The notes beneath the pieces were generated by a model. It ran no database searches and was not told the origin of the DNA. It saw only the letters and a program-made list of their open reading frames with translations. Below, piece after piece: positions 38,128 through 53,005 of a stretch of DNA of 64,000 nt (its first letter is position 1; each line of letters starts with the position of its first letter). The translations under genes were made by a program, and so were the position numbers. The stretch covers positions 3,636-67,635 of the forward strand of contig CBDUZO010000008.1 in NCBI GenBank assembly GCA_965371725.1, in the 5' to 3' direction. Source of the stretch: an uncultured Phycisphaerales bacterium (GTDB lineage Bacteria > Planctomycetota > Phycisphaerae > UBA1845).

Positions 38128-38370
38128 GTGGCGAAAATCAGTGACTATCTGACGATCGGCGAGGCGGCGGCATACCTGGGAGTTCACCCGGATAGTCTGC
38201 GCCGCTGGGACAGAGCCGGAAAGCTGGAGCCGCGTCGGCATCCGATCAACAACTTTCGACTCTATCTGAACCGCGACCTGGACCGGCTCCTCCCCCAGAT
38301 CGGCGCAGTCGGGTCTGCCGACGACGACTCCAAGAGCGCCAAGCGGAAGCGGCCCCGGCGGAAGCGATAG
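38128..38370 (+). CDS. MerR-family/excisionase-like HTH DNA-binding protein
   Basis: GTG start. (M)AKISDYLTIGEAAAYLGVHPDSLRRWDRAGKLEPRRHPINNFRLY is a classic MerR-type HTH. Basic tail KSAKRKRPRRKR. Confidence 0.8.
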   Translation: MAKISDYLTIGEAAAYLGVHPDSLRRWDRAGKLEPRRHPINNFRLYLNRDLDRLLPQIGAVGSADDDSKSAKRKRPRRKR

Positions 38371-38399
38371 ATGTTGCTGTACGACGGAGCGAACGGACT

Positions 38400-50000: not shown

Positions 50001-51362
50001 TCGGACGCGGAGTTCGTTTTCTTCGCGCACGACGTGGTGGATTTGGCCGATCCGGGCCGACGGTTTGCGCTCAGCTCGGAGGACATCGAGCTGTTGAACC
50101 CCAACACGCGAACGTGCCCGATTTTTCGATCACGACGAGATGCAGAGATCACCAAGGCTCTCTATCGTCGAGCCGTAATCATCGGGGACGCCAGATGTGG
50201 AGTGTCGTTCTTCCCCAAAATCGACATGACCGATGAAGTTGGCAAGTTCATTTCCATATCAGAATTAGTGACGAACGATGTGACGCACGATTGTGTCGAA
50301 ACCGAGGGCCGGATGTACCTTCGCCTATACGAATCGAAGCTGATTTGGCACTACAATCATCGCTGGGGTACCTTCTTGAACTGTTCCCCGGATTCCCTGG
50401 TGAAGGGAAACGCTCGGAAGCTCACACCGGATGAACGCGAGTCGCCCGATTCCTTATGCATGCCCCGTTACTATGTGCCGCGCGAGCTTGTTCGCTCGCG
50501 GTACACCGTCCCGCTAGGCGAAAGTCCGACCTTTCTAGCTGTCCGGCGGCTTACGAACGCAACCAACGAACGAACCGCAGTGTTTTCGGCGATCCCATGG
50601 GCCGGATGCGGAAACTCCATCTTCGTTCTCTCGGTACCGAGCGTGGATGTGTTGATTGGACTGTTGACGTGTGGAAACTCTTTCGCTTTTGACTACTGCA
50701 CCCGCAACAAGATGGGTGGTACGAACTTTCTGCAATTCATCATCGAGCAGTTGCCCATCGTTCCTCTTGAGCCGTTGGGAAATCCACCGTGGTCGGCAGG
50801 TGCATCGTCCAATCATAGCTGGTTCTTTGCGAGGGCGTCGGAGCTTCAATGCGTCACAAGAGATATGGATCGGTTCGCCAAACAGTGCGGACACAATGGG
50901 CCACCGTTCCGGTGGGATGTGGGACGGCGGTTCCTTATCCGTTGCGAGCTGGACGCGGCGTATTTCCATCTCTACAGCATGGAACGCGACGACGTGGACT
51001 ACATCATGGAGACCTTCCCCATCGTCAAACGCAAAGACATCGCCCGCACTGAGGTCAAGGACAACTCCGGCGAAGTCACCCAAGAAGGCCGCTACCGCAC
51101 CAAGGACACCATCCTCGAAATCTACGACGAAATGGCCGAGGCCATGAAGACCGGCAAGCCCTACCAGACCCGTCTCGACCCGCCCCCCGGCCCACCCGCC
51201 GACGCCGAGGGCAACTTCCTGCCCCTCCCCCAATGGCTCCCCGGCCAACCGCAACCGGCAGACTGGCCGTCCCACATCCACGGCCCGAAGGAAGTCTACG
51301 ACTGGGCCAAGGCCCACAACATCGACTGGCGCACTCTCTTGGACATGGAGGCGGACTCGTGA
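47088..51362 (+). CDS. Eco57I/type-IIG-like N6-adenine DNA methyltransferase, 1424 aa (DrmMI-like)
   Basis: [22 protein letters not shown], SAM motif [16 protein letters not shown], catalytic [21 protein letters not shown]. A long C-terminal region is presumably the specificity domain. ATG 47139 ([20 protein letters not shown]) is an alternative start. Confidence 0.88.
   Translation: [1424 protein letters not shown]
49221..49303. repeat. Imperfect inverted array of 7-8-nt units inside the methylase ORF
   Basis: The left arm GTAGCGA-GTAGGGAA-GTAGCGA-GTAGCGAG-GTAGG (49221-49255), a 15-nt spacer, then the right arm TCCCTATC-TCCCTACC-TCCCTACC-TCCCTCC (49271 onward). This is the approximate reverse complement: about 80 percent pairing over about 24 nt with one indel. 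It encodes [27 protein letters not shown] in frame. Confidence 0.7.
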
Positions 51363-53005
51363 CACTTGACAGTCTTCTTGCTGTGGCCGGTCTATTGCTC
51401 GCGGCCTACGCGATCATGCCGCGCGCTCGGCAACTCGATATCCAGTTGCGGGTGGGGGCACTGGACTGGTTCATTGCCATCGTCGCCCTGCTGGTCGTCC
51501 ATTACTTTCAATTCCATGCTTACTTCGAGAAGGCCGGACTGACACTGAACCTTGGCTATGAACAATGGGGGCTGACGCCGGAGAAGATATCCTACATCGT
51601 TCTTCTCGTGGCAGCGCTGCTCATCGGCTTGCACGTGTGTAGGGTACGGCTGACACCGGGACGGGTTCCAAAGTTCTTCGCCTTCGCCCAGGAACTCATG
51701 TGGGCTGGGAAGTACCACGACGTGGCTCTGGTCTTGGAGCGGCATCTGGGCGAACTGATGCGGATCTGCCAGGCGAAAACTAGGTGGCTTCGTTGGCGTG
51801 CCAAGCTCCTGGCGCCCACGCAGCCGCCTTTCGCAAGATGGCATGCGAAGGTTACTGAAGCGCCGGATGGGAAGACGGCGTTTCCGGAAGCCACGCGATG
51901 GGCGAAGCTCTTGGACAAAGGCAAGGAGGTTTTAGCTGGCTACATTCCGAGTCGGGAAAAGGAGATTGGGCAGGCCCGCGAGTTCTGCATTCAGGCGCTC
52001 ACGCACAAGGATTTTGTTGCGTTCCTCGCCAAAGGAAGACCCTACCTCGGCTTGGATATCATCAAGGCGGGTTTCTACCAGCGGGAGGAGTTTCTGACGC
52101 TCTACATGAACGCCTTGCTGCGAGATACGTCGAGCGTACTGTACCACGAGATCAAGAACAACGAGAGCCTCGCAGGATGGTACGAGTATGACATACCGGA
52201 AGAGAACAGGGTCCTCCACACCCTTGTTGCTGATGCCAAGTTTGCAGAGAAGCTCGCCATCTATCGGCCGGTTGGCGAATACATGATCCGTCAGCTGGAC
52301 GAGCTGTCCCTCCGGGAAACGAACGACCCGTATAACCTGCCGATGTATGATTTCCACGACGACGGCAGGTGGACCTCATCGTTATGGATCGGAATCCGTT
52401 TCTTCGACATCATGGTCACAACGGCACTGCACGAAGGCATCGAATGGCATATGTGGCTGTATTACTTCGACCCCGTGACGGAGCGAATCTGCAAGAACTA
52501 CGGGTTGGATAGCGAGCAGGTTGATGCCGAGGCAGAATGGCCGACTCGGTATAGCTATCTACTCTATGAGATGTTCTCCGTAATGACTGGGTGGGTATCC
52601 GCTCTACGCCATATTCCGCTTGAGCAATCGAACGTCAAACTTGCTTCCATTGCGCCGCGTCGCGAGAATGGGAACATCCCGAAGAGCGGCATTCTGGCGC
52701 TAAGCCAGTGTCTCAAGCGTGTCTTGGTTGAGCAGAGCATTCCTGTTAAGTTTCGCCAATACCTGCTCGAGACGGTACTCCGACTCTATTTCAACCTTCG
52801 GGAAGAAGATAGACTCCACGACTATGCGGAGGCAACGCGCAACGCGATCGGGTTGTGCACTGAATCCCAGTGCCATGACCGAGAGGAGTATTACCGCCAG
52901 CTGATCGACGGAATAGACAAAGGGGACTGGATAGCCAACCACCCCGAACAGGTCGATGAACTCCGGGAGTTCGTGACGACGGAATCCATGAAGGACACAA
53001 GCTGA
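51359..53005 (+). CDS. Membrane-anchored protein of unknown function (548 aa), translationally coupled to the methylase
   Basis: GTG 51359 overlaps the methylase stop (GTGA); ATG 51416 is an alternative start. Three N-terminal hydrophobic helices (LLAVAGLLLAAYAIM, WFIAIVALLVVHYFQF, ISYIVLLVAALLIGLHV) are followed by about 430 aa of soluble, Trp/Tyr-rich helical sequence. No PLD HxK or other motif recognised. Confidence 0.7.
   Translation: MTLDSLLAVAGLLLAAYAIMPRARQLDIQLRVGALDWFIAIVALLVVHYFQFHAYFEKAGLTLNLGYEQWGLTPEKISYIVLLVAALLIGLHVCRVRLTPGRVPKFFAFAQELMWAGKYHDVALVLERHLGELMRICQAKTRWLRWRAKLLAPTQPPFARWHAKVTEAPDGKTAFPEATRWAKLLDKGKEVLAGYIPSREKEIGQAREFCIQALTHKDFVAFLAKGRPYLGLDIIKAGFYQREEFLTLYMNALLRDTSSVLYHEIKNNESLAGWYEYDIPEENRVLHTLVADAKFAEKLAIYRPVGEYMIRQLDELSLRETNDPYNLPMYDFHDDGRWTSSLWIGIRFFDIMVTTALHEGIEWHMWLYYFDPVTERICKNYGLDSEQVDAEAEWPTRYSYLLYEMFSVMTGWVSALRHIPLEQSNVKLASIAPRRENGNIPKSGILALSQCLKRVLVEQSIPVKFRQYLLETVLRLYFNLREEDRLHDYAEATRNAIGLCTESQCHDREEYYRQLIDGIDKGDWIANHPEQVDELREFVTTESMKDTS

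What the first reader, a model, noticed from the sequence alone, without database searches (positions are those of the whole stretch)
38128..53005. 15-kb DISARM class-1-like operon with non-canonical composition and gene order
Established knowledge: class 1 DISARM (Ofir et al. 2018) combines DrmA (helicase), DrmB (DUF1998), usually DrmC (PLD nuclease), DrmD (SNF2 helicase) and DrmMI (N6-adenine methylase).

Seen here, all on one strand with ATGA/GTGA start-stop overlaps:
- a MerR-type HTH
- one 1723-aa protein carrying both the helicase and the DUF1998 region
- an SNF2 helicase
- a pRiA4-ORF3-like protein
- a 1424-aa Eco57I-type adenine methylase
- a membrane protein

No PLD (HxK) gene is present. 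The system therefore looks like a DISARM relative in which DrmA and DrmB are fused, the nuclease function has changed, and two extra genes have been recruited. A Druantia DruE-like identity for the large helicase is an alternative I cannot exclude by eye.
Basis: partly seen in the sequence, partly recalled or inferred. Interest (0 to 1): 0.65.

Follow-up and report, generated by a model that had tools for sequence, protein, structure and literature searches.

The report
ARMADA type I anti-phage operon
This is an intact copy of ARMADA type I, an anti-phage system described in 2025 that is related to both DISARM and Druantia; it carries three locus-specific extra genes, so it is a new member of a known kind and not a new system.

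Summary
All six co-directional genes are present as described. They are not a DISARM class-1 variant.

**Core.** The core is ARMADA type I (Bell et al. 2025, bioRxiv 10.1101/2025.09.15.676423):
- ArmC: a 1723-aa YprA-family helicase with DUF1998 and a C-terminal Vsr/DUF559 nuclease.
- ArmA: an SNF2 helicase.
- ArmB: a PglX-like NPPW adenine methylase.

**Evidence.**
- In the tree, ArmC nests with helicases on contigs that the paper's Table S1 lists as ARMADA type I. E. coli ArmC (type II) and DruE lie far outside.
- The order ArmC→ArmA→ArmB holds in 50 of 51 related loci long enough to judge.
- All catalytic motifs are intact.
- No PLD, DruH, DpdA or ArmD-like gene is linked.

**Extra genes.** None is a conserved ARMADA part.
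- The MerR-like HTH recurs only in a few relatives.
- The pRiA4_ORF3 gene lies in a ~0.73-kb block where a sister locus (87% nt identity) has an 18-bp spacer.
- The 548-aa three-TM protein fills a hypervariable slot after armB.

**Other points.**
- The locus is absent from 30 related genomes and sits in a defence island.
- Function is inferred, because only type II has been tested experimentally.

Interest is low.

The parts
38076..38104 (+). Promoter-like site (TTTGCA-17-CATAAT) upstream of the HTH gene. It is the likely operon promoter.
   Evidence: Consensus scan. The CTGCATAAT/-10 block is conserved in the sister loci L081 and L094. DNA homology with L081 begins at 38039. This is a consensus match only, and function is inferred.
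38128..38370 (+). 80-aa MerR/HTH_17 DNA-binding protein, a probable transcriptional regulator. It is an occasional accessory of ARMADA type I and not a core gene.
   Evidence: Pfam MerR at 9.5e-11 and HTH_17 at 3.2e-9. PADLOC mad1 at 48 bits. It is present 30 bp upstream of armC in L081/L082 (83% aa identity) and L094. Among the 73 genome loci with upstream sequence, only 3 carry it (L020, L040, L048).
38400..43571 (+). ArmC: a 1723-aa YprA-family SF2 helicase with an OB-CON-DUF1998 module and a C-terminal Vsr/DUF559 PD-(D/E)xK nuclease. It is the predicted effector.
   Evidence: Pfam DEAD, Helicase_C, MZB and DUF559. Motifs found: Walker A GTGSGKS at 115, DELH at 232, CxxC at 466, 580, 1310, 1329 and 1572. 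Residues D1660, D1673 and H1677 are invariant in 12 diverse homologues. The protein nests in the ARMADA type I clade.
43568..46408 (+). ArmA: a 946-aa SNF2/RapA/BrxHII-like helicase whose start overlaps the armC stop (ATGA).
   Evidence: SNF2-rel_dom and Helicase_C. Motifs GIGKT at 124 and DEAH at 226. 25% identity over 656 aa to E. coli ArmA. It lies immediately downstream of armC in related loci.
46410..47138 (+). Block of about 0.73 kb that is absent from the sister locus. It carries the pRiA4_ORF3 (MM3350-like) gene at 46498-47073 with its own GGAGGG ribosome-binding site.
   Evidence: PF07929 at 8.7e-66; PDB 2I1S at 7.4e-34. L081 is 87% identical on both sides and has only an 18-bp spacer here. 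No pRiA4 homologue occurs in 82 related loci. Its homologues elsewhere are solitary genes in unrelated contexts.
47088..51362 (+). ArmB: a PglX/DrmMI-like N6-adenine DNA methyltransferase. The likely true start is at 47139. A variable target-recognition region lies at about 49850-50862.
   Evidence: Eco57I, N6_Mtase and MmeI_Mtase; PADLOC DrmMI at 259 bits. Motif I DPACGSG at 510 and motif IV NPPW at 814. 24% identity to E. coli ArmB across the catalytic core. The segment of residues ~921-1258 is unalignable at DNA level with L081 and only 18-50% identical to close relatives, against 90-100% elsewhere.
49221..49303 (+). 7-nt (x4.1) and 8-nt (x4.4) tandem repeats inside armB. They encode a lineage-specific low-complexity linker.
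   Evidence: Tandem Repeats Finder. The encoded roughly 30 residues are absent from ArmB of L092, L093 and L094 and differ in L081.
51359..53005 (+). 548-aa protein with three N-terminal transmembrane helices and an all-alpha soluble domain. Its start overlaps the armB stop (GTGA). It occupies the hypervariable slot after armB.
   Evidence: No Pfam, PADLOC or NCBIfam hit. Its family has 62 clusters with no known domain. Homologues stand alone in unrelated contexts. The AF2 model has pLDDT 87 and is all-alpha, with no PDB fold match. It is absent from all related ARMADA loci.

Best explanation
The locus is a complete, apparently functional ARMADA type I anti-phage system, in the order armC-armA-armB, acquired horizontally into a defence island.

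**Shown here**
- Gene content, gene order, family placement and intact catalytic motifs.

**Inferred by analogy with ARMADA type II, DISARM and BREX**
- ArmB methylates adenines in a host motif read by its variable recognition region.
- ArmA, an SNF2 translocase, and ArmC act together with ArmB on unmarked incoming DNA. ArmC is a YprA-type helicase with an OB-CON-DUF1998 canopy and a C-terminal Vsr-like nuclease.
- ArmC unwinds and cuts that DNA, giving direct, non-abortive immunity.
- The small MerR/HTH_17 gene probably regulates the operon from a conserved promoter-like site.

**The other two genes**
- The pRiA4_ORF3 gene and the three-TM protein are locus-specific cargo. They sit in two positions where ARMADA type I operons commonly hold foreign genes: between armA and armB, and after armB.
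- They are probably co-transcribed but are not required parts of the system.
For: **Family placement**
- Bell et al. define ARMADA type I as a YprA homologue first, then a BrxHII-like helicase, then a PglX-like methylase, with a C-terminal, predicted-active Vsr nuclease on the helicase.
- The helicase has thousands of full-length homologues of about 1725 aa at 45-57% identity.
- Contigs BAABHJ010000041.1 (L072) and BAAARY010000023.1 (L074) are listed as 'ARMADA Type I helicase' in Table S1, as is Deinococcus marmoris under another assembly (L080 is the same species).
- The window's protein nests inside their clade (SH-aLRT 100, stem 1.6). E. coli ATCC 8739 ArmC (type II) and DruE sit on branches of 4.7 and 5.3.

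**Architecture**
- 50 of 51 loci with at least 8 kb downstream keep the ArmC→ArmA→ArmB order.
- All motifs are intact.
- There is distant but clear homology to E. coli ArmA, ArmB and ArmC.

**Origin**
- The locus is absent from 30 related genomes. AbiE and a TIR-like gene lie next door.

**Cargo status of the extra genes**
- Sister-locus indel for pRiA4.
- Variable inserts in 20 of 50 loci.
- After armB, 23 of the 26 co-directional neighbours compared (25 loci plus this window) are unrelated to any other in the set. They include Mrr, McrB-like AAA_5, UvrD, NERD, SIR2, nSTAND and CBS.
Against: - No experiment exists for any type I system in the papers I could read. Only type II was tested.
- The methylation motif, self/non-self logic and nuclease activity are all inferred.
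- The BrxA-like/MarR-like insert that characterises the ARMADA-Druantia lineage could not be confirmed by fold search. No hit reached E<1.
- The 4-bp overlap between armB and the membrane-protein gene suggests selected co-expression, so that gene may not be mere cargo.
Confidence: 0.85

Rival explanations
1. A six-gene ARMADA variant in which the pRiA4_ORF3 protein and the armB-coupled three-TM protein are working accessory subunits. They might act as an adaptor/regulator and as a membrane-anchored sensor or second-line effector.
For: - Both genes are intact and co-directional. pRiA4 has a strong ribosome-binding site.
- The membrane gene overlaps the armB stop by 4 bp, and its start matches the N-termini of its homologues.
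- A 4-bp overlap of a variable fourth gene with armB recurs in L012, L043, L057, L074, L092 and L093.
- Type II ARMADA needs a fourth gene, armD.
Against: - Neither gene occurs in any of 82 related loci.
- The 93%-identical sister system lacks both.
- Homologues of each are solitary genes in unrelated neighbourhoods.
- Occupants of the slot after armB are mostly recognisable independent defence genes.
Confidence: 0.12
2. A DISARM class 1 variant with DrmA and DrmB fused and DrmC replaced.
For: - The SNF2 protein hits DrmD models (PADLOC 284 bits, NCBIfam 315 bits).
- The methylase hits DrmMI (259 bits).
- ARMADA is by definition DISARM-related.
Against: - NCBIfam DrmD and DrmA scores are far below their cut-offs: 314.6 against 610, and 13.9 against 950.
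- The helicase matches DruE models at 230-351 bits but DrmA at only 53 bits or less.
- There is no separate DrmB and no PLD.
- Bell et al. place ARMADA helicases with Druantia, not DISARM.
Confidence: 0.02
3. A Druantia (type III-like) system built around DruE.
For: The best PADLOC hits of the helicase are DruE3 and DruE1 models at 351 and 299 bits.
Against: - There is no DruH or other Dru partner among the operon genes or neighbours.
- The C-terminus is Vsr/DUF559, not the PLD pair of type III DruE.
- E. coli DruE aligns only over the RecA cores and sits far outside the clade.
- The SNF2 and methylase partners are ARMADA features.
Confidence: 0.01

Closest known systems
ARMADA type I (disARM-related Antiviral Defense Array; Bell et al. 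2025, bioRxiv 10.1101/2025.09.15.676423 / PMC12458937)
   Same: - Same three core genes in the typical type I order: YprA-like ArmC, SNF2 ArmA, PglX-like ArmB.
- ArmC is about 1725 aa with a single C-terminal Vsr-type nuclease.
- No ArmD.
- The helicase nests among helicases on contigs listed as type I in Table S1.
   Different: This copy adds three genes that the paper's main text does not mention:
- an upstream MerR/HTH_17 gene;
- a pRiA4_ORF3 gene between armA and armB;
- a three-TM protein gene coupled to armB.
ARMADA type II (E. coli armABCD; NCTC 12900, ATCC 8739, EDL933)
   Same: - Homologous ArmA (25% identity), ArmB (24%) and ArmC (24-39% in blocks).
- This is the only ARMADA type with experimental proof of broad, non-abortive phage defence in which all genes, the Walker A motifs and most other catalytic motifs tested (including NPPW) are required.
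   Different: - Type II has the order armA-armB-armC-armD.
- Its ArmC is about 2110 aa with extra inactive nuclease domains.
- It has an essential GajB-like/RelE ArmD. The window has no UvrD-like gene.
DISARM class 1 (DrmD, DrmMI, DrmA, DrmB, DrmC)
   Same: It has an SNF2 helicase, a large N6-adenine methylase and a DUF1998-bearing helicase module. The likely logic is methylation-based self/non-self discrimination.
   Different: - In DISARM the helicase and DUF1998 are split into two genes, and the nuclease is a separate PLD protein.
- Here they are fused, the nuclease is Vsr-type, and DrmA and DrmD model scores are far below cut-off.
Druantia type III (DruH-DruE)
   Same: The YprA-family helicase belongs to the same ARMADA-Druantia branch. 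PADLOC DruE models give the best hits.
   Different: There is no DruH. DruE carries PLD domains and has no SNF2 or methylase partners.

Membership tests
ARMADA type I | YprA-family helicase that falls in the ARMADA type I clade | tested here: met
   Tree of 33 helicases. The window protein lies inside a clade (SH-aLRT 100) that includes L072 and L074, whose contigs are listed as 'ARMADA Type I helicase' in Bell et al. Table S1, and L080, whose species is listed there. E. coli ArmC (type II) and DruE lie outside on very long branches. The tree used a quick search and only two outgroups.
ARMADA type I | Adjacent BrxHII/RapA-like SNF2 helicase (ArmA) | tested here: met
   SNF2-rel_dom and Helicase_C. 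NCBIfam RapA at 104 bits and PADLOC BrxHII at 164-179 bits. 25% identity over 656 aa to E. coli ArmA. Walker A and DEAH motifs are intact.
ARMADA type I | PglX-like N6-adenine methyltransferase (ArmB) | tested here: met
   Eco57I, N6_Mtase and MmeI_Mtase. Weak BREX PglX model hits. Homology to E. coli ArmB, including the NPPW block. Motifs DPACGSG and NPPW are present.
ARMADA type I | Gene order YprA homologue, then SNF2, then methylase | tested here: met
   The order in the window is armC 38400, armA 43568, armB 47088. The same order is found in 50 of 51 related loci.
ARMADA type I | Single C-terminal Vsr-type PD-(D/E)xK nuclease on the helicase, predicted active | tested here: met
   DUF559 at 26 bits, above the 20.6 cut-off, at residues 1660-1707. 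D1660, D1673 and H1677 are invariant across 12 diverse homologues. There is weak direct similarity to Vsr structures 1VSR and 1ODG (E about 0.08). Activity was not assayed.
ARMADA type I | BrxA-like helical domain, zinc-binding beta-barrel and MarR-like domain inserted between RecA1 and RecA2 | tested here: inconclusive
   Conserved CxxC pairs at 466/469 and 580/583 lie in a beta-rich segment of a confident model of residues 275-950 (pLDDT 84). The Foldseek PDB search gave no hit below E=1. Only weak winged-helix regulator matches appeared.
ARMADA type I | No GajB-like/RelE ArmD gene (this distinguishes it from type II) | tested here: met
   No UvrD-like hit anywhere in the window, using a type I-locus UvrD protein as query. 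None of the six genes or their neighbours has UvrD domains.
ARMADA type I | Confers anti-phage defence | not testable with these tools
   In the papers read, only type II was tested experimentally.
DISARM class 1 | DrmA helicase and a separate DrmB (DUF1998) gene | tested here: not met
   Helicase and MZB/DUF1998 lie in one 1723-aa ORF. NCBIfam DrmA scores 13.9 bits against a cut-off of 950.
DISARM class 1 | DrmC PLD nuclease | tested here: not met
   PLDc_2 matches in the genome lie only on contig C65, not on the window's contig C8.
DISARM class 1 | DrmD SNF2 helicase (equivalog) | tested here: not met
   NCBIfam DISARM_DrmD scores 314.6 bits against a cut-off of 610. This shows homology but not membership.
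Druantia type III | DruH partner and a DruE with C-terminal PLD domains | tested here: not met
   No DruH model hit in the operon or among neighbours. The C-terminus is DUF559/Vsr. E. coli DruE aligns only over the RecA cores.
Dpd (7-deazaguanine DNA modification/restriction) | DpdA (TGT-like) and the dpdB/C modification genes, with DpdE/DpdJ equivalogs | tested here: not met
   The only TGT-family gene is on contig C27. NCBIfam DpdE scores 178 against 500 and DpdJ 74 against 800. The 841-bit hit to PADLOC 'DpdE' model PDLC02853 is not backed by any other Dpd feature.
MADS (methylation-associated defence system) | MAD2 methyltransferase equivalog and the further mad genes | tested here: not met
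   NCBIfam MADS2 scores 26.9 bits against a cut-off of 720. Only the small HTH resembles mad1, at 48 bits.

The most novel reading that the evidence does not exclude
ARMADA type I operons may act as docking platforms. Two fixed positions, between the core genes and directly after armB, capture foreign genes and express them from the ARMADA promoter. The gene after armB often overlaps the armB stop by 4 bp.

In this copy the captured pRiA4_ORF3 (MM3350-fold) protein and the three-TM all-alpha protein from an undescribed 62-cluster family would be genuine defence accessories. The membrane protein, for example, could be an envelope-anchored sensor or a back-up effector coupled to ArmB.

A secondary possibility is that the 7/8-nt tandem repeats inside armB act as a slipped-strand on/off switch for the methylase.
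Probability: 0.12. Interest if true: 0.5.

Novelty: new member of a known kind. Interest (0 to 1): 0.2.

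Why it matters
- **Annotation.** The copies of PADLOC (v2.0.0, 2023) and NCBIfam (release 20.0, June 2026) searched here gave no ARMADA-named hit. The locus therefore splits into DruE-, DpdE- and DrmMI-like hits that look like a new hybrid. 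Naming it ARMADA type I prevents a false claim of novelty.
- **Testing type I.** In the papers I could read, type I has not been tested experimentally. This is a compact, intact copy with a sister locus at 87% nucleotide identity that differs mainly in the methylase recognition region and in cargo. Cloning the two side by side would give a natural pair for testing specificity and the role of accessory genes.
- **Cargo slots.** The slots between and after the core genes hold diverse defence genes. This may help in finding new defence genes by position.

Tried and rejected
- **DISARM, Druantia, Dpd and MADS membership.** Each was tested with family models and partner-gene searches and rejected.
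- **pRiA4, the membrane protein and the HTH in 82 related loci.** I searched down to tblastn E=1. Only the HTH turned up, in a few loci.
- **Small proteins in the armA-armB slot of other loci.** I asked whether they are pRiA4 relatives. They are not: they are 23S_rRNA_IVP, DUF6979, HNH or unknowns.
- **Fold of the membrane protein.** The model is confident, but no PDB match exceeded TM 0.3.
- **Fold of the ArmC insert region.** No significant PDB match.
- **Operator upstream of the HTH gene.** No inverted repeat was found.
- **Terminator scan.** It found fewer sites than expected from shuffles and nothing useful.

Full report
**Observation.** The six genes exist as described, all on the + strand.
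- MerR/HTH_17 gene at 38128-38370.
- 1723-aa helicase at 38400-43571, with DEAD, Helicase_C, MZB/DUF1998 and a C-terminal DUF559 (Vsr-like) domain.
- SNF2 helicase. Its real start is the ATG at 43568, overlapping the helicase stop as ATGA.
- pRiA4_ORF3 gene at 46498-47073.
- Eco57I/N6_Mtase methylase at 47088-51362.
- 548-aa protein at 51359-53005. Its GTG start overlaps the methylase stop. It has three N-terminal hydrophobic helices.
- No PLD domain lies on this contig.

**What the family models say.**
- PADLOC gives a mixed picture. The helicase matches DruE models best (up to 351 bits) and DrmA only weakly (53 bits). The SNF2 protein matches one 'DpdE' model end to end (841 bits) and DrmD at 284 bits. 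The methylase matches DrmMI at 259 bits. The HTH matches mad1.
- NCBIfam gives no hit above any curated cut-off. DrmD scores 314.6 against 610, DrmA 13.9 against 950, DpdE 178 against 500, DpdJ 74 against 800 and MADS2 27 against 720.
- This mixture is what one expects from a family that neither library reports under its own name.

**Identification.**
- A literature search led to Bell et al. [quoted passage not shown] Its YprA-family helicase is closest to Druantia DruE.
[quoted passage not shown] The helicase carries a C-terminal, predicted-active Vsr-type nuclease. That is the core of this locus.

**Membership tests.**
- The helicase has thousands of full-length homologues of about 1725 aa at 45-57% identity across many phyla.
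- A scan of one genome per species returned 80 loci.
- The contigs of two of them, Actinoallomurus liliacearum BAABHJ010000041.1 (L072) and Pilimelia columellifera BAAARY010000023.1 (L074), are listed as 'ARMADA Type I helicase' in the paper's Table S1. Deinococcus marmoris, the species of L080, is listed under a different assembly.
- I fetched ArmC (type II) and DruE (type III) from E. coli ATCC 8739 and built a tree. The window's helicase nests inside the clade holding L072, L074 and L080 (SH-aLRT 100). The two E. coli proteins sit outside on branches of 4.7 and 5.3 substitutions per site.
- Pairwise, the window's proteins are distant homologues of E. coli ArmA (25% over 656 aa), ArmB (24%) and ArmC (24-39% in blocks reaching through DUF1998). 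DruE aligns only over the RecA cores.
- Of 51 related loci with at least 8 kb downstream of the helicase, 50 have SNF2 then methylase on the same strand.
- All catalytic motifs are intact:
  - ArmC: GTGSGKS, DELH, five CxxC pairs, and invariant D1660/D1673/H1677 in the nuclease tail.
  - ArmA: GIGKT and DEAH.
  - ArmB: DPACGSG and NPPW.
- One listed feature could not be confirmed: the BrxA-like/zinc-barrel/MarR-like insert between the RecA domains. A confident model of residues 275-950 shows a beta-rich segment carrying the conserved CxxC pairs, but Foldseek found nothing significant in the PDB.

**Rejected alternatives.**
- DISARM: there is no split DrmA/DrmB and no PLD, and the model scores are sub-threshold.
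- Druantia III: there is no DruH, and the tail is Vsr, not PLD.
- Dpd: the only TGT-like gene in the genome is on another contig.
- MADS: only the HTH resembles a mad gene.

**The three extra genes.** None is a conserved ARMADA component.
- *HTH.* It is found 30 bp upstream of armC in the closest relatives L081/L082 (helicase 93% identical) and L094 (73%). Among the 73 genome loci with upstream sequence, only 3 carry it. A promoter-like site upstream of it is conserved with those relatives.
- *pRiA4_ORF3.* The sister locus L081 is 87.5% identical at DNA level from 38039 to the armA stop at 46409. It is 85.6% identical again from 47140. Where the window has about 0.73 kb carrying pRiA4, L081 has an 18-bp spacer. 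No pRiA4 homologue occurs in any of 82 related loci. Its homologues elsewhere are solitary genes of about 190 aa in unrelated or plasmid-like contexts.
- *Membrane protein.* It belongs to a small family of 62 clusters with no known domain. Family members stand alone in unrelated places: a phage-like contig, next to a HEPN gene, and in a Marinomonas chromosome. Its AF2 model is confident (pLDDT 87) and all-alpha, with no PDB match.

**A pattern behind the extras.**
- Twenty of the 50 complete loci carry inserts of more than 400 bp between the core genes. These include a UvrD-like helicase between armC and armA in six loci, plus 23S_rRNA_IVP, DUF6979, HNH and unknown small genes.
- In 28 of 43 loci, a co-directional gene follows armB within 120 bp, often with a 4-bp overlap. 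Of the 26 such genes compared (25 loci plus this window), 23 are unrelated to any other in the set. Their domains include Mrr, McrB-like AAA_5, UvrD, NERD, SIR2, nSTAND3, CBS and Bro-N.
- The window's pRiA4 and membrane genes are therefore occupants of recurrent cargo positions.
- Earlier notes from this scan on other genomes also describe cargo embedded in ARMADA loci. Those notes are unverified leads and were not used as evidence.

**Methylase variation.** Compared with close relatives, ArmB is 90-100% identical over most of its length. Identity drops to 18-50% over residues ~921-1258 (window ~49850-50862), which is unalignable at DNA level. This fits swapping of the target-recognition region, as reported for armB in E. 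coli type II. Inside armB, 7-nt and 8-nt tandem repeats at 49221-49303 encode a linker that other relatives lack.

**Context.** The locus is absent from 30 genomes of the same family or order. It sits in a defence island with an AbiE pair (28151-29949) and a TIR-like gene. The island lies between a MacB-type efflux operon and an MFS/HlyD/OEP efflux operon.

**Mechanism.**
- Shown here: composition, order, clade and intact motifs.
- Inferred from ARMADA type II genetics, where all genes are required, the Walker A motifs and most other catalytic motifs tested (including NPPW) are required, and defence is non-abortive, and from DISARM and BREX:
  - ArmB marks host DNA.
  - ArmA, ArmB and ArmC act together on unmarked invading DNA.
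  - The ArmC helicase-nuclease destroys that DNA.
- No type I system has been tested in the papers I could read.

**Verdict.** The locus is a new member of a known kind, ARMADA type I, with locus-specific cargo. Interest is low.

Noticed in passing
window 49221-49303: A 7-nt repeat (GTAGCGA, x4.1) and an 8-nt repeat (CTCCCTAC, x4.4) lie inside armB. They encode a linker of about 30 residues that is absent from ArmB in L092, L093 and L094. The unit lengths are not multiples of three, so slippage would shift the frame. This is a possible on/off switch.
   Followed up: partly
window ~49850-50862 (ArmB residues ~921-1258): This segment cannot be aligned with the sister locus, which is 87% identical elsewhere. 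It is probably a swapped target-recognition region that gives a different methylation motif.
   Followed up: partly
L002, L011, L018, L022, L044, L048 (between armC and armA); L043 (after armB): A UvrD-like helicase of about 693 aa sits between ArmC and ArmA in six ARMADA type I loci. It may be an ArmD-like fourth gene in a different position from that in type II.
   Followed up: partly
window 43568-46408: PADLOC model PDLC02853, labelled 'DpdE', matches ArmA end to end at 841 bits, yet no Dpd gene is linked. PADLOC v2 is therefore likely to label ARMADA ArmA proteins as DpdE.
   Followed up: partly
window 51359-53005 and P0123-P0183: This is a family of 62 clusters of proteins of about 545 aa, each with three N-terminal TM helices. 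The all-alpha model is confident (pLDDT 87). There is no Pfam domain and no PDB fold match. Members are scattered as single genes in variable regions.
   Followed up: partly
window 28151-29949: An AbiEi/AbiEii toxin-antitoxin pair (PADLOC 292 and 350 bits) lies at the left end of the defence island.
   Followed up: no
window 17871-18644: A Dam-family (PF05869) orphan adenine methyltransferase of the phage-associated type lies outside the island.
   Followed up: no
window 4632-12692 and 12280-16020 (minus strand): Two very long ORFs (2686 aa and 1246 aa) have no Pfam hit at E<1e-4, and the shorter one has no PADLOC hit either. They may be giant surface or repeat proteins, or artefacts of high G+C content.
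   Followed up: no
window 47088 vs 47139: The conserved ArmB N-terminus ([13 protein letters not shown]...) begins at the ATG at 47139. The 17 codons from 47088 have no counterpart in relatives, so the annotated start is probably too early.
   Followed up: yes
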